This document shows positions 39,415 to 58,242 of a stretch of DNA of 64,000 nt, in pieces. Source of the DNA: an uncultured bacterium (GTDB lineage: Bacteria > Arandabacterota > Arandabacteria > JAGLYR01); the NCBI GenBank assembly GCA_964610505.1, contig CAZSXU010000014.1, positions 4,652 to 68,651 on the forward strand, read 5' to 3'. The notes beneath the pieces were generated by a model. It was not told where the DNA came from. It saw only the letters and a list, made by a program, of their open reading frames with translations, and made no database searches. The position numbers were made by a program, and so were the translations under genes. How positions within the stretch are numbered: position 1 is the stretch's first letter; the number at the start of each line of letters is the position of its first letter.

Positions 39415-40833
39415 ATGTCAAAGAACAACTCCATGTTTCATGTGCTCCAGATCCTTGCGATGGCTACCGGACTCGCGGCGGCCGCAGGCTGCGGGGGGGC
39501 TTCGAGTGGCCCCTGGCCCGAGGCCCGTCCTCTCGGGCGAGACCTCGACGCCTACCGGGCGCCTGCGCGTCCGACGTCGGCCTCCGACGCGCCGGCCCGG
39601 AGTTCGGGTGCCGATCCCCCTTCGACCGTCCTTTCCCTGAAAGATGCACTGGCGTTTGCGCTTGAGCGGAGTCCCGAGCTGGCGGCCTCCTCCTGGGAGG
39701 TTCGAGCCGCCGAAGCGAGAGCCGTTCAGGCGGCCTTAAGGCCGAACCCCGAAATCGAGCTGGAGGTCGAGGAATTCGGAGGCACCCACGGCCGGCGGGA
39801 CTTCGACGGGGCCGTCGTGATTCCGGCCGTCACTCAGGAGGTTGAGCTCGGCGGTAAACGCTCCAAGCGAAAGCGGGTTGCTCTCCTGGATACGCAGCTG
39901 GCCGGCTGGGACTACGAGTCCAAACGCCTCGATGTGTACACGGAGGTGAGGATGGCGTTCATTGCCGTACTCGCCGGCCAGGAACGGGTCCTCCTGGCCG
40001 AGGAACTGGTACGGCTGTCCGACGAGGTCTACTCGTCCGTTGCGGAAAGGGTGAACGCCGGGAAGGTTTCCCCGCTTGAAGAGACCAAGGCGAGCGTGAC
40101 TCTCTCCACCAGCCGCATCGAGCGGGACCATGCGAAACGCGATCTTGCCGTGGCGAGAAAGCGGCTTTCGATTACCTGGGGAAATCCATCGCCGACGTTT
40201 GAGAGGGTCGAGGGGCAGCTGGAGTCACCGGGCCAGGTTCCGCCCGTCGAGACGCTGGTCTCCCGGGTTGCCGGGAACCCCGAGGTGGCCCGCTGGACGA
40301 CGGCGATCGAGCAACGTCGTGCCGCCATCGAGATGGAGAAGGCCGGGAGGATTCCGGACCTGACCCTATCGGGCGGCGTCCAGCAGTTCAGGGAAACCGG
40401 CGATCGGGCATTCAAGGTGGGGATCTCCATTCCGTTTCCGATCTTTGATCGCAACCAGGGGGCGGTGAGGGAAACCGAGAGCGCCCTGGCCAAGGCGAAC
40501 GAAGAACGCCGGGCCGTCGAGGTACGGGTTCGCGGCCGGATTCTGGAAACACATGAATTGTTAACGGTAGCTCATTCGGAAGCCCGGAGTCTCGGCGAGG
40601 TGGTTCTTCCGGCCGCCCGCCGGGCGTTTGAGGCTGCCGAGGAGGGCTACCGGAGTGGGAAGCTGGGATACCTGGATGTCCTGGATGCCCAGCGGACCTA
40701 CTTCCAGGTGAAAGAACAGTGGGTCCAGGCGCTCTCGGCCTATCACGGGGCCGTGGCGGAAATGGAACGACTGATCGGCGGGTCCCTCCGGGAAGCGGGC
40801 GGGCTCGAACCAAACCAGGAGAATCAACGATGA
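39415..40833 (+). CDS. TolC-family outer membrane efflux protein (CzcC/CusC-like lipoprotein)
   Basis: Lipobox-like LAAAAGCGG; OEP-type coiled-coil repeats; stop overlaps the adaptor start (ATGA). Confidence 0.85.
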   Translation: MSKNNSMFHVLQILAMATGLAAAAGCGGASSGPWPEARPLGRDLDAYRAPARPTSASDAPARSSGADPPSTVLSLKDALAFALERSPELAASSWEVRAAEARAVQAALRPNPEIELEVEEFGGTHGRRDFDGAVVIPAVTQEVELGGKRSKRKRVALLDTQLAGWDYESKRLDVYTEVRMAFIAVLAGQERVLLAEELVRLSDEVYSSVAERVNAGKVSPLEETKASVTLSTSRIERDHAKRDLAVARKRLSITWGNPSPTFERVEGQLESPGQVPPVETLVSRVAGNPEVARWTTAIEQRRAAIEMEKAGRIPDLTLSGGVQQFRETGDRAFKVGISIPFPIFDRNQGAVRETESALAKANEERRAVEVRVRGRILETHELLTVAHSEARSLGEVVLPAARRAFEAAEEGYRSGKLGYLDVLDAQRTYFQVKEQWVQALSAYHGAVAEMERLIGGSLREAGGLEPNQENQR

Positions 40834-42299
40834 AACGAACGGAGACCTTGGCCCTGGCTGTGGCGGTCTTTCTTTTCGCAGTCTCGGGCGTCCTGTGGCT
40901 CACGAAGCCCGACTCGCCGGGTGTCCCCGCGGCGCACGACGGCGGGGATCATACCGGCGGCGGATTGTGCGGCCACGACCATTCCGCCGAGGCACCGGCG
41001 GACGCGAACGTGCCCGCGTGCGGCCACGACCATTCCGCCGAGGCACCGGCGGAAGACGGCGCACCCTCGTGCGATCATGACCATTCGGGGGAACACGCGC
41101 ACGGCGAAGGCGCGGCGGATCTTGAGATGTCGATCGATGAAATCATGACGACCGAATGCGAGCACGGAGTGGCCACGCATCTCTGCGATGACTGCCGGTA
41201 CGAAGTCGGTGTCGTCAAGGTGGACGAGTCGCTCATTCGAAATCACCCCACCTCCGAAGAGGGACTGATCCGCGTCATCCCGGCTTCCCGATCGGCAACG
41301 CCTTCCGTCTTGCGGGTCACGGGGGAGGTGGGACTCAATGAAAACCAGGCCGTTCGCATCAGCCCGCAGGTCCCCGGCATCATCCGATCGGTGCCCATTG
41401 ACATCGGTGCCCGGGTGAAGAGGGGGGACGTGCTCTTCGAGATCGAGAGCCGGGAGCTGGGGCGGGCCTTCAGTGAGTATGAGAGAAACCGGGCGATGGC
41501 GGATCTGGCCAGGCAGAACTTCGAGCGGGAGAAGACCCTTTTCGACAAGAAGATCTCCTCCGAGTGGGACATGATCGAGACGCAGATGGTCTATAAGGAG
41601 CACGAGACGAATCTCCAGGCGTCGGAGACGGCGCTCCGGGTTCTGGGATTTACGGACGAAGATCTACGGTCGCCGGCAGGACCGACGGGCGCGGCGCGGA
41701 CCGGGCGCCTCCCGGTTCGTTCGCCCATTGACGGCAGGGTCATCGAGAAACAAGCCGTGGTGGGAGAGCGGGTGGACGAAGGCGATGACCTGATGATGGT
41801 TGCGGATCTCGGTGCCGTCTGGGTGTGGGCCGACATCTATGAACAGGATCTGGCGACTCTCATCGAGGCCAGGCGGCACGGTCCGGTACCGGTCGAGGTA
41901 TCCGTGCACGCGTTTCCCGGGTTGGCGTTTCCGGGGGAGATCGACTACGTCGGCGCCGTGATGCAGGAACGAACCCGAACCGTGAAGGTGCGGGCGACGG
42001 TGGCCAACGGGGAAGAGCTTCTTCGCCCCGGGATGTTCTGCGAGATCCGGCTTCTCCTGGGAATCACCGATGCCGCCCTGGCCGTCCCCAAGGCCGCACT
42101 CCTCTCCGACGAGGGCGTCGATTTCATTTTCAAGCATCTGACGGGCAACTGTTTCGTCCGGAGACCGGTGGACCTAGGACGAGAGTTCGAGGGCCGGGTG
42201 GAGGTTCTCGCCGGACTCGGTGCCGGTGAGATGATCGTGACCGACGGCGCATTTCTTCTGAAATCGGATGTCCTGCGCTCGAAGATGGGCGCAGGCTGA
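40830..42299 (+). CDS. RND efflux periplasmic adaptor (CzcB/CusB-like) with His/Cys-rich N-terminal extension
   Basis: Start at ATG 40830 (MKRTETLALAVAVFLFAV). N-terminal CGHDHSAEAPA repeats, then HlyD-type adaptor domains. Confidence 0.85.
   Translation: MKRTETLALAVAVFLFAVSGVLWLTKPDSPGVPAAHDGGDHTGGGLCGHDHSAEAPADANVPACGHDHSAEAPAEDGAPSCDHDHSGEHAHGEGAADLEMSIDEIMTTECEHGVATHLCDDCRYEVGVVKVDESLIRNHPTSEEGLIRVIPASRSATPSVLRVTGEVGLNENQAVRISPQVPGIIRSVPIDIGARVKRGDVLFEIESRELGRAFSEYERNRAMADLARQNFEREKTLFDKKISSEWDMIETQMVYKEHETNLQASETALRVLGFTDEDLRSPAGPTGAARTGRLPVRSPIDGRVIEKQAVVGERVDEGDDLMMVADLGAVWVWADIYEQDLATLIEARRHGPVPVEVSVHAFPGLAFPGEIDYVGAVMQERTRTVKVRATVANGEELLRPGMFCEIRLLLGITDAALAVPKAALLSDEGVDFIFKHLTGNCFVRRPVDLGREFEGRVEVLAGLGAGEMIVTDGAFLLKSDVLRSKMGAG
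40967..41053 (+). repeat. In-frame 51-bp tandem repeat inside the adaptor gene
   Basis: GTGCGGCCACGACCATTCCGCCGAGGCACCGGCGGA occurs twice, 51 bp apart (40967 and 41018), encoding CGHDHSAEAPA twice; a third degenerate unit encodes CDHDHSGEHAHGE. Confidence 0.8.
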
Positions 42300-48474: not shown

Positions 48475-49029
48475 CTACTCGCGCAGGAATGCGAAGATTC
48501 TGGTGAAAGCCCAGATGGTGGGGATACCGGCGAGAAGCGTTGCGGCCACGGCCATGACCAGAGGACGAGACAACACCTCCAGCGCAGAGACCTGTTCCAG
48601 CGGCACATCCGCGGCTCGGGCCAAGAATCCCATGACCGCATCCCCGATCCATGCGACGGGTGCGGCAAGTCCCTGGACCACGGGCTCCATCAAAGCGGGG
48701 AGAATGCGCGCCAGGTCCGTTCTGAACACGAGAAGGAGTGCGGAACCGACGGCAAATGCAAATACCGGAACCAAATTGGCCCAACGTTGCGCCCTCTTCT
48801 CCGCCGCGCGATCGCTGATTGCTTTCTCGGTAACCCGCCGGGCGAAATCGGCCGATAGCCCGGAGGGCAACTCCTGGACCAGAGCCTCGTGGATTTTCTT
48901 CTGCAGGAGGAGTTCGGCCCGGCACCGGCGGCAGCCCGAGAGATGGGCCTCGAGCTCCGTCATCCGGCGCTCGGGGAGTGATCCCTCCAACATTCGGGCA
49001 ATCCACTCCGTGTAGTCGAGACAGGTCAT
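48475..49029 (-). CDS. Anti-sigma factor (zinc-finger HxxxCxxC type, membrane-spanning)
   Basis: HLSGCRRC motif near the N-terminus, TM helices in the C-terminal half; start overlaps the stop of the ECF sigma gene by 4 nt. Confidence 0.6.
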   Translation of the reverse strand: MTCLDYTEWIARMLEGSLPERRMTELEAHLSGCRRCRAELLLQKKIHEALVQELPSGLSADFARRVTEKAISDRAAEKRAQRWANLVPVFAFAVGSALLLVFRTDLARILPALMEPVVQGLAAPVAWIGDAVMGFLARAADVPLEQVSALEVLSRPLVMAVAATLLAGIPTIWAFTRIFAFLRE

Positions 49030-49769
49030 CCGGTCTGCCCCCCATTGCTCACCGCATCGCCCGAGGGTCCGGCGACGAGGTCGGCAAGGTCCGTACTGGC
49101 GAGGACCAGTTCCCTCAGGCGGAGCTTGGCCCGGTGGATGTAGGTTTTGACCGTTCCCAGGGGAATCCCCATGATCTCGGCGATCTCCTCGTAGCGGGCC
49201 TGGTTGACGTAGAAGAGCGTGAGTGCCGTCCGCTGCCGCGCCGGCAGCTGCTCCACCAGGGCCTGAATGTTCTCGGACAGATCCAGCTGCTCAATTTCCT
49301 CTTCGAGGTCGGTTCGCGACGGGGGAAGCAGGCGGTGGACTTTCTCGTCGCCCTCTTCCTCCAGTGAGAGATGCTCGCCGCGCCGCCCGCGCTTTCGGAG
49401 TTCCGAGAGGCAGAGGTTGTGAGCGATCTTGTAGATCCAGGTGCTGAACTTGCTCCCGCTCCTGAAACCGGGGATCGCACGATAGACTCTGAGAAACACT
49501 TCCTGAGTCAAGTCCTCACCCTCCAGGCTCCCCACCATCCGCCTCACGAGCCAGTGAATTCGATGTTGGTACCGCGTGACGATCTCGGCGAAAGCCTCGT
49601 GGTCCTCCTCCCGGCACCGCTCGACCAGTTCCTCGTCCGTCCGTTCCGCCACGGGTCTCTTGTCGTCCACCGTCGATTCCGGGTTAAGAGGCTCATGAGT
49701 CCAGTCCGCCGGGGGCGGTGAGATTGCTCCTGTTCCATCGTAATCGGCTTCGGCAGGACCTGCAAGCAC
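49026..49769 (-). CDS. ECF-subfamily RNA polymerase sigma-70 factor; start uncertain
   Basis: Region 2 (LTQEVFLRVYRAIPGFRSGSKFSTWIYKIAHNLCLSELRK) and region 4 (TALTLFYVNQARYEEIAEIMGIPLGTVKTYIHRA). Confidence 0.85.
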   Translation of the reverse strand: MLAGPAEADYDGTGAISPPPADWTHEPLNPESTVDDKRPVAERTDEELVERCREEDHEAFAEIVTRYQHRIHWLVRRMVGSLEGEDLTQEVFLRVYRAIPGFRSGSKFSTWIYKIAHNLCLSELRKRGRRGEHLSLEEEGDEKVHRLLPPSRTDLEEEIEQLDLSENIQALVEQLPARQRTALTLFYVNQARYEEIAEIMGIPLGTVKTYIHRAKLRLRELVLASTDLADLVAGPSGDAVSNGGQTG

Positions 49770-49811
49770 AGGATTTGTCGACTTCGCCCTTGCGACCCCG
49801 CTCCTGTCCCC

Positions 49812-49840
49812 ATAGACTCCGTGAGCGGCCGAAAGGTTTC
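49812..49840 (-). promoter_or_regulatory. Candidate ECF-type promoter (GAAACC-N17-GTCTAT)
   Basis: Minus-strand GAAACC (plus 49835-49840) and GTCTAT (plus 49812-49817), about 40 nt upstream of the sigma start. Confidence 0.3.
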
Positions 49841-49978
49841 ATAAATAAACGTGGAGGAAAACCGGCGGGGAGTGAAACAATTCTGCCCCGCGGGGAGTCT
49901 ACCTGGAGTGAGCGGACAATGGCCGGGCACCGGAGGGAGCCCGGATAAGCGGCAACATAAGGAGCAAGGGGGTGCAAC

Positions 49979-50368
49979 ATGAACTGGCTACCTTTTATGA
50001 TTCCCATTACCTTCATTCTGGGCGCTTTTGCCGTGGGCATCGTGGCGGTGATCATGAAGTCCAAGGCAAAGGATCGTCAGCACCAGGAGCGTATGTTCTT
50101 GGCCGAGAAAGGATTGCCGGTTCCCCCCGAGCTCTATGAGGTTTCCGAGGAAAAGAAACCCAGCGAGTTTCGGGGGTTTCGTGCGGTCCTCATGGTGCTC
50201 GGGTGCGTCACGACGCTCGTGGGGGTTTCGGTCATGATCGCACTGGGTGTTCGGGACGGCATGCAGGACGGCATAAACGGTGTGATTCCTCTTCTGATCG
50301 GCATCGGGATTCTGGTGGCCGAGAGGATGATCAACACCCTCATCGTGAAGCCCGGCAGGGAACAGTAA
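49979..50368 (+). CDS. Hypothetical small membrane protein
   Basis: 129 aa, 2-3 TM helices; SD-like GCAAGGGGGTG before the ATG. Its stop codon is the first base triplet of the 44-bp repeat array. Confidence 0.5.
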   Translation: MNWLPFMIPITFILGAFAVGIVAVIMKSKAKDRQHQERMFLAEKGLPVPPELYEVSEEKKPSEFRGFRAVLMVLGCVTTLVGVSVMIALGVRDGMQDGINGVIPLLIGIGILVAERMINTLIVKPGREQ

Positions 50369-50555
50369 GACACCGGTCAATCAGTGTGAAGCGCGCCGGC
50401 AAGGAAGGGTAAGACACCGGTCAATCAGTGTGAAGCGCGGCGGCAAGGAAGGGTAAGACACCGGTCAATTAGTGTGAAGCGCGGCGGCAAGGAAGGGTAA
50501 GACACCGGTCAATCAGTGTGAAGCGCGGCGGCAAGGAAAGGTAAGACACCGGTCA
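50366..50555 (+). repeat. 44-bp tandem direct repeat, 4 full copies plus a 14-bp partial fifth
   Basis: Units start at 50366, 50410, 50454, 50498, 50542: TAAGACACCGGTCAATCAGTGTGAAGCGCGGCGGCAAGGAAGGG, with 1-2 substitutions per copy. No spacers, so not CRISPR. Confidence 0.95.
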
Positions 50556-50578
50556 TCGATTTCGTACCCGCTAGTGGC

Positions 50579-50615
50579 GGGAGGCGCCCGGAATGGACGC
50601 CTCCCGTCTTCTTGT
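50579..50615 (+). terminator. Putative intrinsic terminator after the repeat array
   Basis: GGGAGGCG-(11-nt loop)-CGCCTCCC followed by GTCTTCTTGTATCG. Confidence 0.5.
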
Positions 50616-50711
50616 ATCGCCTACGCCCCCGAGGCCATTCCCTCCCGTACCCTGCAAGCGACCGACATGCGCGGCGCTTCGTCCGTATCGCCGTTCACGA
50701 TCTCGTCCCGC

Positions 50712-50727
50712 TGGCACCGAACCTGCA
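50712..50727 (+). promoter_or_regulatory. Candidate sigma-54 (-24/-12) promoter TGGCAC-N5-CTGCA
   Basis: TGGCACcgaacCTGCA; GG and GC dinucleotides correctly spaced. About 270 bp upstream of the CDS at 50998. One such match per window is expected by chance. Confidence 0.3.
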
Positions 50728-50997
50728 TAACACTCCTCCAAACGCGGAGGCAGGCGCCATCTTGAAATCCGTAGGACGTTACCCCGCAACACGTTTCGTC
50801 TTACGTCGGCGACCGACAGGTAGGGTGTTCTCACCCGGGAATCGGGGGATTTTACCCGCTGGAGTGGACTTGAGTCCATCGTTGGTATGGAAGGTATCCC
50901 CGGAGACCATCAAAGGAAAGGAGGGGTGCTCGACCGAATTCGACAGTTCCGGTGTTGTCCCTTTGGCTGAGTATCCGAGAACCATGAGGAGGTTCAC

Positions 50998-51663
50998 ATG
51001 AGGTTCGCTACGTTTCTGACCCTGATCTCTCTGTTTGGATTGACGGCGATTGCCCACGCGGGCGTTCCTCCGACCACGAACAGATTGGATGGGGACCCCG
51101 TCGCTGACGGCGTGGAGTGCATCGTGCTGGATTCCTGTGTCCAATGTCCGGCGGACGGCATTCCCGAGAACGAGGACCCCTGCTACGACTGGTATGCCAT
51201 CCCCGACATATGGAACGGCGGCTGCAATTCCGACCCGCCCATTTTCCAGATTCTCGACCCGACCTGCGAGGGGTCCATCTCCGTCTGCGGGTGGGGTGGG
51301 ACGGACCCGGGCGGCATGGGCTGGCGAGACACGGACTGGTATGAAATCACCCTGGTCGAGCCCAGCCAGATCACCGTGTGCGTGGTCGCCGAGATTCCCG
51401 TCAATCTGTTCATCATCGACGCCGCCGCCGGCTGCGCCACCACGGTGATCCTGCACGAGGCATATGCGACGGTCCCGTGTGAACCGGTGTGCATCCAGAC
51501 CGCGCTCGCCGCAGGAACCTACTGGCTGTGGGTCGGAGCCAACGACTTCTACAGCATCCCATGTGGGCAGTACCTGCTGACCGTTGATGGATACTACCCG
51601 GAAGGCGGACCGTCCGCCACGGAACGGACATCCTGGAGTACGATGAAGAACCAGTACAAGTAG
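50998..51663 (+). CDS. Secreted Cys-rich protein with PPC-like domain and conserved C-terminal tail
   Basis: Perfect SD GAGGAGG; signal peptide MRFATFLTLISLFGLTAIAHA; DTDWYEITL...NLFIID resembles a pre-peptidase C-terminal (PPC) domain; ends ...TSWSTMKNQYK. Confidence 0.55.
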   Translation: MRFATFLTLISLFGLTAIAHAGVPPTTNRLDGDPVADGVECIVLDSCVQCPADGIPENEDPCYDWYAIPDIWNGGCNSDPPIFQILDPTCEGSISVCGWGGTDPGGMGWRDTDWYEITLVEPSQITVCVVAEIPVNLFIIDAAAGCATTVILHEAYATVPCEPVCIQTALAAGTYWLWVGANDFYSIPCGQYLLTVDGYYPEGGPSATERTSWSTMKNQYK

Positions 51664-51814
51664 ACCAAACACGAACCTCAGCAATCCGGAAAAGGAGCCC
51701 CGCGGGTGCGGGGCTCCTTTTCTGTGACGGGGCGCCTTGTCCCCTCTAAGTGAAGGATCTGCAAGACCCCAATGATGATGCGTAGCCCGTCGCTGCGGGA
51801 ATCCACGATCTCGT

Positions 51815-52558
51815 TCAGCGGGTGGAAGAGCTGCGGGATTCTGACGATCGGTCCCCTGGGGGATAGATCTTGGTGGCCTCGTGGATGGCGGCGGCGCCGA
51901 AGAGCAGGGGAGTCCACGTGACCCTCGCAAAACCCGCCTCTCGAAGCATCGCCGCCAGTTCCTCTGCCCCGTAGAACCTGGGGATCGTATGGGAAAGATA
52001 CCGGTATCCGGCGCCGGAACCCGAGATGAGTGTACCGAGGGGGCGGACGGTGAGCCCGACGTAGAAATGGAACAACGTGCGGATGAGGCGGGATTGCGGC
52101 CGGCTCGTTTCAAGGTTCACGAAACGTCCCCCGGGCTTGAGGACTCGCGAGTACTCACGAAAGGCGCCAACGAGCGCCCCGCGGTTGACGTTCAGATTGC
52201 GCGTGGCGAAGGACATGGTGACGGCGTCGAAGGTATCGCCGGCAAACGGAAGCGCCCGGGCGTCGCCGAGAACCGGATCGACGCCCCGCCCCTCGGGCTT
52301 CTCCACCAGCGGGCGGAGCATGGGCAGACAGAAGTCGCAGGCGACGACGGTCGTTTCGTTTCCTCCCAGGCGCCGAAGATAGGCGGCCGTCTCACCCGTC
52401 CCGGTGCATATGTCCAGCCACCGCTCGCCCCCCCGGCGCGCCGCGAGCGCCGCAGCGCGCTTGCGCCACAGAATATCCATGCCCAGCGTCAAGACGTGAT
52501 TCACCGTCTCGTAGGTGCGGGGTACTTCGGAAAAGATCTTCTGAATGCCGTGGTTCAC
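51815..52558 (-). CDS. ubiE: Demethylmenaquinone/ubiquinone methyltransferase (UbiE/MenG)
   Basis: Start at GTG 52558. Matches E. coli UbiE by recall across the length: YETVNHVLTLGMDILWRKR, LDICTGTGE, ARALPFAGDTFDAVTMSFATRNL, RVLKPGGRF, YRYLSHTI. Confidence 0.85.
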   Translation of the reverse strand: MNHGIQKIFSEVPRTYETVNHVLTLGMDILWRKRAAALAARRGGERWLDICTGTGETAAYLRRLGGNETTVVACDFCLPMLRPLVEKPEGRGVDPVLGDARALPFAGDTFDAVTMSFATRNLNVNRGALVGAFREYSRVLKPGGRFVNLETSRPQSRLIRTLFHFYVGLTVRPLGTLISGSGAGYRYLSHTIPRFYGAEELAAMLREAGFARVTWTPLLFGAAAIHEATKIYPPGDRSSESRSSSTR

Positions 52559-52793: not shown

Positions 52794-53453
52794 ATGAAGA
52801 TGGTCATCGGGATCTGCATTTGGGCGTTTTTCGGATTGAGTCCGGTGAGTTCTGCTGTGGGGGCTCTGGAGGTTTTTCATCTGGAGAGCGACGAGGCACT
52901 GCTCGAGATTCTCCCGGAGGAAAACGTAGCTTTTGTCGCGGAGGGGAGAATCGGGGATCTGGGCGGAGCCGCCATGTTTGAACTGGATCTCGGTCAATCC
53001 GTCGGCGCCCCGGCCGTTACGGATCAGCACGACTGGCAAAGCGGCGTGACGGAGGCGTTCTCTCTCACCTATGACAAGACGTGGAACCGGGTCGACTTCA
53101 CGATCGGAGAGACGATGCTCCAATACACGCCCGGCCAGCTCTTCATGGAAATCTTCGTTCGAGCTTGGGCCGAGGATGCCGGCACGTCCATCTCTCTCGA
53201 GGATCTGATCCTCAACGGAGAGAGTGTGCCCGCGACCTGCGAAGCGACCGGCGCCGCCGGCCTGGACATCCTCCGAATCCGGGGCGGGACCCTACTTGAC
53301 GGATTCGTTCTCACCGGAACGGCGACGATGGAATGGTCGGCAAGCCCGCCGACGGAGTCCGGGCTCTCTTTCCAAATCAACGCCGGATCCCCGGACACCC
53401 AGGTTGCTACGGCAAAAGTCACCTGGGGACAGATCAAGAATCGATTCCGGTAG
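52794..53453 (+). CDS. Secreted hypothetical protein sharing the C-terminal tail of 50998..51663
   Basis: Signal peptide MKMVIGICIWAFFGLSPVSSAVGA; ends ...VTWGQIKNRFR; SD-like GAGGGG upstream. Confidence 0.5.
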   Translation: MKMVIGICIWAFFGLSPVSSAVGALEVFHLESDEALLEILPEENVAFVAEGRIGDLGGAAMFELDLGQSVGAPAVTDQHDWQSGVTEAFSLTYDKTWNRVDFTIGETMLQYTPGQLFMEIFVRAWAEDAGTSISLEDLILNGESVPATCEATGAAGLDILRIRGGTLLDGFVLTGTATMEWSASPPTESGLSFQINAGSPDTQVATAKVTWGQIKNRFR

Positions 53454-55110: not shown

Positions 55111-56082
55111 CTACGACCGGTCCCACAGTTTCGTGATGGGATTGCTCTGAATGAGATGCAGAATCTCGGCCCGGAGGTCCGGGAGGCCCGTGCGTTTGAA
55201 ATCCGGAGGGGGAACGACGAGACGAAGAGCGCCCGGTGCACAGCGGATATCCACGGGCGTGGTGCCGACGATCTCACAGTCGGCGTGCACGGGCAGTTTC
55301 TCGGGCGAGCGGATCCGGACGGCGCCGGCCTGGACGTATTCGACGTCCTCGAGGTCGAGCTGTTTGAGTTGTGCGGTGGCGACCACGTAGCGGAGAAGGT
55401 CCGCCAGGCCACGCCGCTTGAAAACACAGATGTCCAGCTTTCCGTCGTCCAGGCGCGCCAGCGGCGTCACCTTGAACCCGGCGGCGTAGTTTCGTGAATT
55501 GCCTACGATCACGAAGTATCCCCGGCGGGGTTCGCTCTCCCCCTCGACGGAGAGTTCCATTTCGCACGGCTCGAACGTAATCACGGTCTGGAGAGCGGTG
55601 AGGGGGTACGCGGCCGATCCGAAGATTCTCTTCATGAGAGGATCCACCTCACTGGCCACCTGCGCGTCGAGACCGATCCCCACCATGAGCAGGAAGTTCC
55701 GATCCCGGACCACGCCCAGATCGACGGTCACCGTGTATCCCTCGAACATGACGTCCGTGGCGTGAGAGAGATCGAGCGGGATGGAGAATTCCTGTGCGAG
55801 GACGTTCTCCGTTCCCTGCGGGAGAATGGCCAGAGGGACCTCGCTGCCGGCCAGACCATTGATAACCTCATTGATGGTTCCGTCTCCTCCCGCGGCGATC
55901 ACGAGATCCAGGCCCTCGCGAACCGCCCTCCCTGCCGCCTCGGTTGCATCCCCGGGCGCACGGGTCCGGTGCACGCGAAGAGAAATTCCCCGCCGGGCCA
56001 TTCTCCCGCGGATGACGTCCGCGTCGACGCGCGGCAACCACGTGCCCGAAGCCGGATTGATGATGAGATATGCCTGGTTCAT
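55111..56082 (-). CDS. Diacylglycerol-kinase-family lipid kinase (YegS/DagK-like)
   Basis: LIINPASG and VIAAGGDGTINEV catalytic-domain motifs. Confidence 0.8.
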   Translation of the reverse strand: MNQAYLIINPASGTWLPRVDADVIRGRMARRGISLRVHRTRAPGDATEAAGRAVREGLDLVIAAGGDGTINEVINGLAGSEVPLAILPQGTENVLAQEFSIPLDLSHATDVMFEGYTVTVDLGVVRDRNFLLMVGIGLDAQVASEVDPLMKRIFGSAAYPLTALQTVITFEPCEMELSVEGESEPRRGYFVIVGNSRNYAAGFKVTPLARLDDGKLDICVFKRRGLADLLRYVVATAQLKQLDLEDVEYVQAGAVRIRSPEKLPVHADCEIVGTTPVDIRCAPGALRLVVPPPDFKRTGLPDLRAEILHLIQSNPITKLWDRS

Positions 56083-56084
56083 AG

Positions 56085-56153
56085 GAACGAACCTCGGAAC
56101 CTCAGAACTCAGAACCGAGAACTCAGAACTGGGACCTTAGAACTCAGAACCTG
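56085..56153. repeat. Tandem heptamer repeat (GAACTCA)n, about 9 imperfect units
   Basis: GAAC recurs with exact 7-bp period from 56105 to 56153 (gaactca gaaccga gaactca gaactgg gacctta gaactca gaacctg), preceded by two 8-bp variants. Fills the 72-bp gap between the GWxTD-like gene stop and the lipid kinase start. Confidence 0.85.
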
Positions 56154-56154
56154 T

Positions 56155-58242
56155 TCACCGTGTGACATAGAACGTCGTACTTGTCCCCGTCTCGGTACCG
56201 GCCACGGTGTCCTGAATGCTTAGCGTCAGAACGTATCGACCGAACCGCAGGGGCGCGAGATCCAGCGACAGCCGCCGGGGCGAGAATGAGGACGCGCCCT
56301 CGTATGTGAAGGTATTGGCGATGTGAGGTGGGGTTGAGGGCTTTCTCCGGAAGAGCCGGCGGATTCCTTCCCAGAGACCCCCGGCATCTTCGACGTCGAT
56401 CGGAATGACCCGCACGGTTGCCTTGAAACTCGAGCGGCCGCTCCCGTCCAGCGCCAGGCCGTAGACCTCGTAGTAGAAATGGACAGGCTTCGCGCGGCGG
56501 AAGCGGCGGGTCGGCTCCGGCTCGACGGTCAGATCCCCTTTATCGAACGGAGTTCTTCCGGGGGAGGGGCGGATGGCTCTTGCCAGCTGGATGTCGCTGA
56601 TCATCAGACTCGAAGAATCAAAGGCCCTGACGTCAAGCGCCACCTCCGTAAGGCCGATCAGTTCCTCTCGCTCATCCTCCACCGAGATGGCCGCCAGGTA
56701 TCGGCCCGGGAGTAGATTGTAGTCGCTCTGATGAATGAGCGCCCCTCTTCGCACATTCGTCAGCGTGCCGGAGACCTGGGTGATGACGGTGGTGGTTTCG
56801 CGGGCCACGATCTCCCAGTCTTCGTTGTAGATGAGGATTCGTCTCAGGAGTTTCTCCGTCCAGACATCGCCCTCCTTCACGAACCCCAGATCCTCCGCAG
56901 GGACGGCATAGTAGATTTCCTGCCGGGTGATTCCGGGATCGCGGAGGAATGAGCAGGCGTCCGCGATCATTCGAATCTGTGTCCCCTCGTACAGTGGAAG
57001 ATGGAATTCCGGAATCTCGCGGATCATCGTCTCCCAACGCCTCGCATCCGTTCTCCCCTCGTCGAAGGCGAAGCCGAACTGCCCGTCGAGGAAGCGATCG
57101 CGAAACGTGAGCTGGAAATGCTTGCCCTCCATCTCGTAGGTCCACACCTCAACCGGGCGGGGATTGCGCTCGACCTGGTCGTCCTCCATCCCGAGGGCAA
57201 TTTCGTCCTTTCTCAGTTTCCTTTTTGTCTCATCGAGGAAGGAAGCCCGTTCCAGCGGGGGGCCGTACCGGATGTGGGACTGGCCCCGTGCGGAATCCCG
57301 GCCTCGAAGACCGGCCCTGGGAGCTTCGAATCGAAGATCGGCCTGAAGGATACGCCGCCAGTGTTCGAGAAGACGTTCGTTTGCCTCCGTGCTCAGGTCG
57401 GGATCGCGGTTCCGCCACAACCGGCGCCCGAACTCCGCCACGACTGCGGCGTCGGCCTCCCCGGATCCGAGTCCGAGGTTCTCCGCGTACCCGTCGATCC
57501 CGAGAAACAGGGCTCGGCTCTCGCGACTCGTCTCAAGGATGGCGTTCCAGTACGCCTCCTCCGCTTCCTCCAGTTTCCCCCGGCCCTGGAGGGCCGCGCC
57601 ATACTGGAAAAGCGCTTCCGTGTCGGAGGGATCGTCCACGAGGATCCGGAGGAGAGCTTCCTCGGCCATGCCATATTCCTCCAGCTCGTTGGACACCCGG
57701 CCCAGGGTATAGAGCAGATCCCGGTCGGTGGAGCCCTTGTCGTAACCTTGGACAAGGAGGTCGTATGCCTTCCGCAGGTCCTTGTCCTGGTCCCGCCAGC
57801 GCCGGATGTAGATGGCGCCGCATTCCACGTAGGCCTCGGGTCTCTCGGGGGCCACCTCGATGGTCTTCAGAAAAGATTTCTCCGCATACCGGTCGAAGGA
57901 CTGGGCGGCCTGGACCCGACCGAGCGCCAGATGGTAGTCGGCGTTCTGCGGATCGTACCGAATGGCGAGCTCGTATGCCTCGGCCGCCAATCTTCGCGCC
58001 TCGATGGTGTTCAGCCGGAAATAGGCCTCGGCCAGCCGGGCGTGAGCATCGGCGAACTTGTAGTCCTCGTGGACGGCCGCACGGAATTCCTCGATGGCCT
58101 TGTGGGTGTCTCCCTGTTCAAGAAGAGCCACGCCGGCATCGTAGTGAGGGCGGGGTTTTTCGTCCCTGGCCTCGGCCGCGTGGCCGAGACAAATCGCAAA
58201 TGCGATCAGAGAGATCACGACCGCTTGTCGAGAAGTGACCAT
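56155..58242 (-). CDS. TPR + GWxTD-like domain protein (paralog 1), secreted
   Basis: Signal peptide MVTSRQAVVISLIAFAICLGHA; N-terminal TPRs; central FGRRLWRNRDPDL...GLRGRDSARGQSHIRYGPP resembles the GWxTD domain core with W replaced by R. Confidence 0.65.
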   Translation of the reverse strand: MVTSRQAVVISLIAFAICLGHAAEARDEKPRPHYDAGVALLEQGDTHKAIEEFRAAVHEDYKFADAHARLAEAYFRLNTIEARRLAAEAYELAIRYDPQNADYHLALGRVQAAQSFDRYAEKSFLKTIEVAPERPEAYVECGAIYIRRWRDQDKDLRKAYDLLVQGYDKGSTDRDLLYTLGRVSNELEEYGMAEEALLRILVDDPSDTEALFQYGAALQGRGKLEEAEEAYWNAILETSRESRALFLGIDGYAENLGLGSGEADAAVVAEFGRRLWRNRDPDLSTEANERLLEHWRRILQADLRFEAPRAGLRGRDSARGQSHIRYGPPLERASFLDETKRKLRKDEIALGMEDDQVERNPRPVEVWTYEMEGKHFQLTFRDRFLDGQFGFAFDEGRTDARRWETMIREIPEFHLPLYEGTQIRMIADACSFLRDPGITRQEIYYAVPAEDLGFVKEGDVWTEKLLRRILIYNEDWEIVARETTTVITQVSGTLTNVRRGALIHQSDYNLLPGRYLAAISVEDEREELIGLTEVALDVRAFDSSSLMISDIQLARAIRPSPGRTPFDKGDLTVEPEPTRRFRRAKPVHFYYEVYGLALDGSGRSSFKATVRVIPIDVEDAGGLWEGIRRLFRRKPSTPPHIANTFTYEGASSFSPRRLSLDLAPLRFGRYVLTLSIQDTVAGTETGTSTTFYVTR

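What the first reader, a model, noticed from the sequence alone, without database searches (positions are those of the whole stretch)
50366..50555. 44-bp tandem repeat array starting at a stop codon and ending before a terminator
Four near-identical 44-bp units plus a 14-bp partial begin exactly at the TAA stop of the small membrane protein gene; the last 12 coding bases already resemble the repeat end. The array is followed by a hairpin/U-rich terminator (50579..50615), so it is probably transcribed as a 3' UTR. Each unit carries an SD-like AAGGAAGGG (GGA motif). Possible roles: a 3'-UTR-derived RNA that titrates an RNA-binding protein or ribosomes (CsrB/RsmZ-like logic); an array of binding sites for an enhancer-binding protein acting on the downstream sigma-54-like promoter; or a hypervariable minisatellite. 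It is not a CRISPR array because there are no spacers.
Basis: seen in the sequence. Interest (0 to 1): 0.6.

Follow-up and report, generated by a model that had tools for sequence, protein, structure and literature searches.

The report
Young minisatellite copied from gene end
The 44-bp array is real, but it is an ordinary lineage-specific tandem repeat (VNTR) made by repeatedly duplicating the last bases, stop codon and first downstream bases of a small membrane-protein gene; nothing found here shows a regulatory role.

Summary
There are four 44-bp units (50366-50541) and a 14-bp partial (50542-55), 95% alike, unique to this locus, non-coding, between the TAA of a DUF6249 membrane-protein gene and a strong conserved terminator hairpin (50576-50608).

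Relatives show the origin. The unit is a copy of the gene's own 3' end (50341-50377 is a degenerate "zeroth" copy). The repeated block is bounded by the microhomology TCATCG (50340-45 and 50553-58). Orthologous loci carry:
- no repeat (67%-identity relatives: stop, about 47 nt, terminator hairpin);
- one decayed 41-nt extra copy (83% relative);
- at least one 44-nt unit (88% relative);
- four units here.

The array is identical in four assemblies of this strain. A k=31 Logan contig breaks exactly at the predicted branch point.

I found no Rfam match, no modular RNA fold (z +0.46), no copies elsewhere, and no ORF. The downstream sigma-54-type promoter is real and conserved, and it is also present in the relatives that lack the array.

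Best reading: a slipped-strand/unequal-exchange VNTR overlapping a stop codon, carried passively in the 3' UTR. This class is already documented, for example in Yersinia pestis.

One loose end remains. The unit is 100% identical between this strain and the 88% relative, while neighbouring non-coding DNA is 78-90% identical.

The parts
49873..49901 (+). ECF-type promoter motif TGAAAC-N18-GTCTA upstream of the DUF6249 gene (context: probable start of the transcript that carries the array)
   Evidence: Only 2 matches in the window against 0.03 expected. The other (49813-49841, minus strand) faces the ECF sigma gene. Both are invariant in L008, L009 and L010.
49979..50368 (+). DUF6249 small membrane-protein gene (129 aa) whose 3' end was the template of the repeat
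   Evidence: Pfam PF19762, E 1.2e-7. 44 homologues with E below 1e-25, with the C-terminus ...IVKPGREQ retained in the closest relatives.
50340..50345 (+). Left TCATCG microhomology bounding the repeated block
   Evidence: Read directly from the sequence. The same hexamer bounds the block in L008 and L009.
50341..50377 (+). 'Zeroth' degenerate copy: last 26 coding nt including the TAA, plus 11 nt downstream
   Evidence: Global alignment to the unit matches 34 of 37 positions with 7 gap positions. TRF on L009 calls coding end plus extra copy a 2.0-copy repeat.
50366..50409 (+). Unit 1 (private variant GCGCGCCGG)
50410..50453 (+). Unit 2 (consensus)
50454..50497 (+). Unit 3 (private variant CAATTAG), identical to the single unit of relative L008
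50498..50541 (+). Unit 4 (private variant GGAAAGG)
50542..50555 (+). 14-nt partial unit TAAGACACCGGTCA (the original sequence just downstream of the stop)
   Evidence: the same 14-mer follows the stop in L008 and L009
50553..50558 (+). Right TCATCG microhomology
50576..50615 (+). Intrinsic terminator of the DUF6249 transcript: 11-12 bp G+C-rich stem and U-rich tail
   Evidence: dG -26.4, z -4.05. The stem is conserved in L008, L009 and L010 with one compensatory G-C to A-U pair.

Best explanation
The array is a young, lineage-specific minisatellite (VNTR) that overlaps a stop codon.

Origin (inferred from the series of relatives). In an ancestor the DUF6249 gene was followed by about 45 nt and an intrinsic terminator. 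A roughly 37-nt segment held the last coding bases, the TAA and the first downstream bases, and was flanked by the hexamer TCATCG. It was duplicated in tandem by slipped-strand mispairing or illegitimate exchange. The extra copy then picked up small indels, including an in-frame GGC triplet, to reach 44 nt. In this strain's lineage it was amplified to four near-identical copies by further slippage or unequal exchange between copies.

Consequences. The first unit begins with the gene's own TAA, every unit carries TAA and TGA, and 44 is not a multiple of 3. Copy-number change therefore cannot alter the protein. It only lengthens the 3' UTR between the stop codon and the terminator hairpin, from about 45-105 nt in relatives to about 207 nt here. 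The array is most probably transcribed passively, as part of the likely ECF-sigma-dependent DUF6249 mRNA, and has no dedicated function.

Shown: the anatomy, uniqueness, homology to the gene end, the series of states in relatives, and the conserved terminator. Inferred: the mutational mechanism, transcription of the array, and selective neutrality.
For: Array anatomy.

The unit is homologous to the coding 3' end, and the block is bounded by TCATCG.

Orthologous loci, all with the same neighbours (ECF sigma, anti-sigma, divergent DUF6249, terminator, sigma-54 promoter, secreted-protein gene), show a graded series:
- L010/L011 (67% aa identity): no repeat.
- L009 (83%): one decayed 41-nt copy, 82% like its own coding end. 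It shares derived characters with the 44-nt unit (extra bases before GTGAAGC; GAAC changed to GAAG).
- L008 (88%): one 44-nt unit plus the partial.
- This strain: four units.

More distant orthologues (L012-L014, L016, L017) have no such repeat.

The 44-mer is absent from the rest of the window, from 185,579 species genomes, and from all other JGI metagenome contigs.

No sign of coding or structured RNA: no ORF of 30 aa or more lies within the array in any frame. There is no Rfam hit at E up to 10. The RNA fold is no better than shuffles. There is no complementarity of more than 12 nt elsewhere in the window.

The terminator is conserved.

The array is reproduced identically in Ga0180431, Ga0180432, Ga0310068 and ERZ27256778. 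The k=31 Logan contig ends at 50394, exactly the predicted graph branch point.

VNTRs whose motif contains the stop codon of the upstream ORF are a documented class: 10 of 88 Y. pestis VNTRs, including a 41-bp motif (PMC3689786).
Against: The unit, its partial copy and the last 27 coding bases form an 88-nt run that is 100% identical between this strain and L008. Adjacent non-coding DNA is only 78-90% identical. Under uniform neutral divergence, 61 unchanged non-coding bases would be unlikely (about 5e-5 at 85% identity). This could mean constraint on the unit, or a local recombination tract.

No copy-number polymorphism was seen among the four assemblies of this strain, so 'variable number' is shown only between lineages.

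L008 is a 1.6x-coverage SPAdes contig. A perfect multi-copy array collapses at k=55 to exactly 58 nt (one unit plus the partial), so its copy number is only a lower bound.

Transcription was not measured.
Confidence: 0.8

Rival explanations
1. The array is a functional 3'-UTR module. Transcribed with, or processed from, the DUF6249 mRNA, its 4-5 repeated GGA/AAGGAAGGG motifs would titrate an RNA-binding protein or ribosomes, in the manner of CsrB/RsmZ.
For: The array lies between a stop codon and a conserved terminator, so it should be transcribed. Each unit has one AAGGAAGGG. The unit is unexpectedly identical between this strain and L008.
Against: No modular stem-loop presents the GGA: the best-phase unit fold is -8.9 kcal/mol against -10.6 +/- 2.6 for shuffles; GGA unpaired probability is only 0.18-0.55; the whole-UTR z-score is +0.46. 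There is no Rfam match. The array is absent or decayed in relatives L009-L011. The GGAAG motif descends from the coding sequence GGGAAC (codons for Arg-Glu), so it was not acquired as a binding site. No CsrA homologue is in the window, though 64 kb is uninformative about the whole genome.
Confidence: 0.05
2. The array is a set of upstream activator sites for an enhancer-binding protein that drives the sigma-54-type promoter at 50712-50727. Amplifying the sites would tune expression of the downstream secreted protein.
For: The promoter motif TGGCAC-N5-CTGCA is real, unique in the window and invariant in relatives. Each unit holds an imperfect palindrome ACACCG-N6-CAGTGT. L009 has a perfect ACACCG-N5-CGGTGT about 190 bp upstream of the promoter.
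Against: L010/L011 keep the promoter and downstream gene but have no unit and no such palindrome. The palindrome is created by the junction of two copies, and its spacing differs between relatives (N5 against N6). The array lies 157-346 bp upstream, with a strong terminator in between. No sigma-54 activator was found among the ten ORFs of about 440-495 aa that were tested.
Confidence: 0.04
3. The array, or its copy number, is an assembly artefact (expansion or collapse of a repeat).
For: Short-read metagenome assemblies often misjudge tandem repeats. The k=31 Logan assembly breaks here. The four concordant assemblies may share reads or sampling site.
Against: Units 1, 3 and 4 each carry a private SNP, and the longest exact internal repeat is 54 nt. 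Reads of 100 nt or more, and k above 54, therefore give a single path. The array is identical in JGI assemblies and in a MEGAHIT k141 assembly. The Logan contig ends precisely where a true array of at least 2 copies must create a branch.
Confidence: 0.03

Closest known systems
Bacterial VNTR / minisatellite loci whose motif overlaps the stop codon of the upstream ORF (e.g. Yersinia pestis MLVA loci M76, M65, M59; PMC3689786)
   Same: Head-to-tail units of tens of bp. The repeat motif contains the ORF's stop codon, so copy number does not change the protein. Copy number differs between related lineages. Generated by slippage or unequal exchange. Non-coding.
   Different: Here the variation is documented between species-level relatives in metagenomes, not between isolates of one species. 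No within-population polymorphism was seen. The birth of the repeat from the gene's 3' end can be traced step by step.
MIRU-VNTR (mycobacterial interspersed repetitive units)
   Same: 40-100 bp tandem units in intergenic regions, in the same orientation as the adjacent genes, touching stop codons. (Resemblance from general knowledge, not tested here.)
   Different: MIRUs are a dispersed family present at many loci in a genome. This 44-mer occurs at one locus only.
CsrB/RsmZ-type protein-sponge RNAs
   Same: Several repeated GGA-containing motifs on one transcript ending in an intrinsic terminator.
   Different: No hairpin-loop presentation of GGA, no own promoter identified, not conserved in relatives, no Rfam match.
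CRISPR arrays
   Same: Regularly spaced direct repeats.
   Different: No spacers (units abut) and no cas genes seen nearby.

Membership tests
VNTR / minisatellite | Head-to-tail copies of a 10-100 bp unit with high identity | tested here: met
   Period 44, 4.6 copies, 95% matches; four matches with at most 1 mismatch.
VNTR / minisatellite | Copy number differs between related genomes at the orthologous locus | tested here: met
   0 (L010/L011), 1 decayed (L009), at least 1 (L008), 4 (window). Caveat: the L008 value is a lower bound.
VNTR / minisatellite | Copy-number polymorphism within a population or species | tested here: not met
   Four assemblies of the same strain give identical 4.3-copy arrays. 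Read-level variation is not testable with these tools.
CRISPR array | Repeats separated by unique spacers of similar length | tested here: not met
   Units are directly adjacent.
CsrB/RsmZ-like sponge RNA | Multiple GGA motifs exposed in loops of repeated stem-loops | tested here: not met
   The unit fold is no better than shuffles, GGA unpaired probability is 0.18-0.55, and there is no repeated hairpin module.
CsrB/RsmZ-like sponge RNA | Presence of a CsrA/RsmA partner in the genome | not testable with these tools
   No hit in the 64-kb window. The rest of the genome is not available.
CsrB/RsmZ-like sponge RNA | Match to a curated RNA family | tested here: not met
   No Rfam hit over the array at E up to 10; none at gathering score in the window.
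bEBP upstream activator sites | Sites conserved together with the sigma-54 promoter in orthologous loci | tested here: not met
   The promoter is invariant in L008-L010, but the array is absent in L010/L011.
Dispersed repeat families (MIRU, REP/BIME, MITE) | Many copies at different loci | tested here: not met
   Single locus in the window. No other contig in the JGI metagenomes, and none in the GTDB species genomes.
Iterons of a replication origin | Adjacent rep gene, AT-rich region, plasmid or phage context | tested here: not met
   The neighbours are an ECF sigma, an anti-sigma, Memo, UbiE and a transporter. GC is flat at about 0.60-0.62.

The most novel reading that the evidence does not exclude
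The 44-nt unit is a lineage-specific functional element, an RNA- or DNA-binding platform in the 3' UTR of an ECF-sigma-controlled envelope gene. It would be kept unchanged between two lineages that differ by about 9% in the adjacent coding sequence, and amplified here to raise its dosage. That would make it an example of a new regulatory 3' UTR being born from a duplicated gene end.
Probability: 0.07. Interest if true: 0.5.

Novelty: new member of a known kind. Interest (0 to 1): 0.14.

Why it matters
It matters little for function: the array most likely does nothing beyond lengthening a 3' UTR. It has three modest uses. First, it is a clean natural series showing how a minisatellite is born from a gene's own 3' end between 6-bp microhomologies and then expands. 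Second, it is a possible strain marker for this uncultured lineage (probably Eisenbacteria-like) in hypersaline-sediment metagenomes. Third, it is a worked example of how such arrays break k=31 assemblies and may collapse in low-coverage ones.

Tried and rejected
- Rfam, permissive scan of 49000-52000 and gathering scan of the whole window: nothing on the array.
- RNA folding of the whole 3' UTR and of single units in all 44 phases, both strands: no better than shuffles.
- Exact scan of GTDB species genomes for a 27-mer of the unit: 0 hits.
- Metagenome scan for a 23-mer with one N: only the source contig and its sister-sample twin.
- Second genome scan with a DUF6249 alignment: only two distant loci, neither with a repeat.
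- Search for sequence complementary or identical to the unit elsewhere in the window: nothing longer than 12 nt.
- tblastn for CsrA in the window: no credible hit.
- Pfam scan of ten ORFs of about 440-495 aa for a sigma-54 activator: none.
- Search via the downstream 221-aa protein for contigs entering the array from the right: the one extra contig (L022) starts downstream of the terminator and is uninformative.
- Coding potential rejected: no ORF of 30 aa or more lies within the array in any frame. The SD-like motif is followed only by GTG-TGA, 21 nt away.
- ECF-promoter-like reading of the unit (TGAAGC...GACAC) rejected: poor match to the local TGAAAC-N18-GTCTA motif.
- Literature search on DUF6249: nothing relevant.

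Full report

- Tandem Repeats Finder reports one strong array in the window: 50353..50555, period 44, 4.6 copies, 95% matches, no indels, score 364.
- The consensus 44-mer TAAGACACCGGTCAATCAGTGTGAAGCGCGGCGGCAAGGAAGGG matches at 50366, 50410, 50454 and 50498 with 0-1 mismatch. It matches nowhere else in 64 kb on either strand, and no shuffle gave any match.
- A 14-nt partial (50542-50555) closes the array.
- Unit 1 starts on the TAA of the ORF 49979..50368.
- Units 1, 3 and 4 each carry one private substitution; unit 2 is the consensus.

**2. Surroundings.**

- The ORF is a 129-aa two-helix membrane protein of family DUF6249 (PF19762, E 1.2e-7).
- It is transcribed divergently from an ECF sigma factor (49026-49769, minus strand) and a zf-HC2 anti-sigma factor (48475-49029, minus strand).
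- In the divergent intergenic region, the motif TGAAAC-N18-GTCTA occurs once on each strand: 49813-49841 (minus) and 49873-49901 (plus). These are the only two matches in the window, against 0.03 expected. Both are invariant in relatives.
- From this I infer that the DUF6249 gene belongs to the regulon of its neighbouring ECF sigma factor.
- Downstream of the array lies a hairpin at 50576-50608 (dG -26.4 kcal/mol, z -4.05, 0 of 200 shuffles as stable) followed by CUUCUUGU.
- Its stem is conserved in three relatives, with one compensatory G-C to A-U pair. It is very probably the intrinsic terminator of the DUF6249 transcript, which would place the array in the 3' UTR (inference).
- About 100 nt further on is TGGCACcgaacCTGCA (50712-50727). 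It is the only sigma-54-type match in the window and is invariant in relatives. It lies upstream of a 221-aa secreted protein with no family assignment.
- The window has no tRNA, no Rfam family at gathering score and flat GC of about 0.60-0.66. Its genes are housekeeping or envelope genes, so this is chromosomal DNA.
- Names attached to homologues of the 221-aa protein suggest a Candidatus Eisenbacteria-like organism. This is a weak hint from hits at 42-47% identity.

**3. Is the array an assembly artefact?**

- The window is JGI metagenome contig Ga0180431_10000360.
- The identical array, with the same copy number and the same three private SNPs, is present in Ga0180432_10000665, in Ga0310068_1000112, and in a MEGAHIT k141 contig of ERZ27256778.
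- The longest exact internal repeat in 50200-50750 is 54 nt, so any k or read longer than that yields a single path.
- A Logan (k=31) contig from SRR14699969 ends at window position 50394. That is exactly where a k=31 unitig must stop if the following 31-mer is shared by several units. Independent data from another run therefore also contain at least 2 units.
- I rate the artefact reading at about 3%.

**4. What the relatives show.** The DUF6249 protein has 44 homologues with E below 1e-25. I fetched the DNA around the closest ones and read the region after the stop codon.

| Relative (aa identity to the window protein) | State after the stop codon |
|---|---|
| L010/L011 (67%; same sigma / anti-sigma / DUF6249 / sigma-54-promoter synteny) | No repeat: stop, about 47 nt, terminator hairpin. 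|
| L009 (83%) | The coding end ...CATCGTGAAGCCCGGCAGGGAACGGTAAGACACCGGT is followed by one decayed 41-nt copy, CATCGGTGTGAAGCCCCGCAGGGAAGAGTCAAAACAACCGT, then CATCGGTTTCG and the terminator. TRF calls this a 2.0-copy repeat with 82% matches. |
| L008 (88%) | One 44-nt unit plus the 14-nt partial. |
| This strain | Four units plus the partial. |

- More distant orthologues (L012, L013, L014, L016, L017) have no such repeat.
- L015 carries an unrelated 34-bp x 2.1 repeat 19 nt after its stop codon.

**5. Origin.**

- When the array is phased on CA(A)TC..., the window's 50341-50377 (the last 26 coding nt including the TAA, plus 11 nt) aligns to the unit at 34 of 37 positions with 7 gap positions. 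The unit is therefore a copy of the gene's own end.
- The whole repeated block is bounded by TCATCG: 50340-45 on the left and 50553-58 on the right. The same hexamer bounds it in L008 and L009. This is the signature of duplication by slipped-strand mispairing or illegitimate exchange between short direct repeats.
- The extra copies of L009 and of L008/window share derived characters relative to the coding copy: extra bases before GTGAAGC, and GAAC changed to GAAG. The first duplication therefore probably happened once, before these three lineages split.
- The four copies here are 98-100% identical to their consensus, so the expansion, or homogenisation by unequal exchange, is recent.
- Read in the frame of the next TAA, the unit still spells GTG AAG CGC GGC GGC AAG GAA GGG TAA (VKRGGKEG*), against the gene's GTG AAG CCC GGC AGG GAA CAG TAA (VKPGREQ*). 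It is a fossil of the coding end with one extra GGC triplet.

**6. Does it do anything?** No test supports a dedicated function.

- Coding: no ORF of 30 aa or more lies within the array in any frame. TAA and TGA in every unit, with a 44-nt period, close all plus-strand frames. Two TGAs per unit close the minus-strand frames.
- RNA structure: no Rfam match at E up to 10. The fold of 50340-50625 has z +0.46. The best-phase single-unit fold (-8.9 kcal/mol) is weaker than the shuffle mean (-10.6 +/- 2.6). The GGA triplets have unpaired probabilities of only 0.18-0.55 and sit in no recurring loop.
- Targets: nothing in the window is complementary to the unit beyond 12 nt.
- Enhancer sites: the sigma-54-type promoter is equally conserved in L010/L011, which lack the unit. 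The imperfect palindrome ACACCG-N6-CAGTGT arises at a copy junction and has a different spacing in L009. A strong terminator separates array and promoter.
- Protein sequence: because unit 1 starts with the gene's TAA, copy-number change cannot alter the protein. The C-terminus IVKPGREQ matches that of the closest relatives.

**7. The loose end.**

- With the window array collapsed to one unit, the window and L008 share an 88-nt perfectly identical run: 27 coding nt, the unit, the partial, and TCG.
- This is the longest identical run in the roughly 1.5-kb alignment. The CDS is 91% identical, and the neighbouring non-coding segments are 78-90% identical.
- L008's unit equals window unit 3 exactly.
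- In contrast, L009's orthologous copy is much more diverged than its flanks.
- This could reflect constraint on the unit in the window/L008 clade, a short recombination tract, or chance plus low-coverage assembly effects.
- L008 is a 1.6x SPAdes contig. By my calculation, a perfect N-copy 44-bp array collapses at k=55 to 55+3 = 58 nt, which is exactly 'one unit plus 14', so its copy number is only a lower bound.
- I cannot resolve this without reads or more relatives. It keeps a small probability (about 7%) on a functional reading.

**8. Comparison with what is known.**

- The closest class is the ordinary bacterial VNTR or minisatellite.
- In Yersinia pestis, 10 of 88 VNTR loci overlap the stop codon of the upstream ORF. 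They include a 41-bp motif, and their copy number is noted to have little effect on the ORF (PMC3689786).
- The array meets the tandem-unit and between-lineage copy-number criteria. It does not show within-population polymorphism in the data available.
- It fails the defining features of CRISPR (no spacers), dispersed repeat families such as MIRU or REP (single locus), CsrB-like sponges (no GGA-presenting hairpins, not conserved), iterons (no replicon context) and bEBP sites (not co-conserved with the promoter).

**9. Verdict.**

The two regulatory ones are unsupported.
- The feature is a new member of a known kind.
- Interest is low (0.14). Its only appeal is the unusually clear stepwise record of how the repeat arose from the gene's 3' end, plus the unexplained perfect conservation of the unit between two lineages.

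Noticed in passing
window 49813-49841 (-) and 49873-49901 (+): Two divergent copies of an ECF-type promoter motif, TGAAAC-N18-GTCTA. They are the only two in the window (0.03 expected), and both are invariant in relatives down to 67% protein identity. One faces the ECF sigma / anti-sigma operon and the other faces the DUF6249 gene, which suggests that DUF6249 is a regulon member of this sigma factor.
   Followed up: partly
window 50712-50775: A sigma-54-type promoter, TGGCACcgaacCTGCA, is the single match in the window and is conserved in L008, L009 and L010. It is followed by an equally conserved CAAACGCGGAGGCAGGCGCC segment (possible 5'-UTR hairpin CCTCC/GGAGG) ahead of a 221-aa secreted protein of unknown family. 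No sigma-54 activator was found among the ten ORFs tested.
   Followed up: partly
L015 1323-1391: A 65%-identity DUF6249 orthologue carries an unrelated 34-bp x 2.1 tandem repeat (GACTCAATTTTTGAGCTCTGACCCCGGCAAATT) starting 19 nt after its stop codon. This is an independent tandem duplication at the same relative position.
   Followed up: no
window 50339-50558 vs L008 518-605: An 88-nt run is perfectly identical between two lineages whose flanking non-coding DNA is 78-90% identical. It covers the end of the CDS, one repeat unit and the partial unit. It may reflect constraint, recombination or a low-coverage assembly effect.
   Followed up: partly
window 40967-41086: A second tandem repeat, period 51, 2.4 copies, 85% matches. 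It lies inside a long + strand ORF (40719-42299) and its period is divisible by 3, so it is probably an in-frame protein repeat. It is also present in the sister contig L004.
   Followed up: no
window 56089-56152: About 8 copies of a degenerate 7-bp repeat (CTCAGAA/GAACCTCA), in the gap between the ORFs 55111-56082 (-) and 56155-58242 (-).
   Followed up: no
window 50998-51663 and 52794-53453: Two secreted proteins of about 220 aa end in a similar C-terminal motif (...TSWSTMKNQYK and ...VTWGQIKNRFR). The second is a choice-of-anchor W domain protein (NF041928, E 3.5e-48). The motif may be a sorting or anchor signal of this Eisenbacteria-like lineage.
   Followed up: no
L002 (Logan SRR14699969_228668), last base = window 50394: The k=31 Logan contig stops exactly at the first k-mer shared between repeat units. 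This shows how this kind of array truncates unitig-level assemblies, and it gives indirect evidence for the repeat in an independent run.
   Followed up: yes
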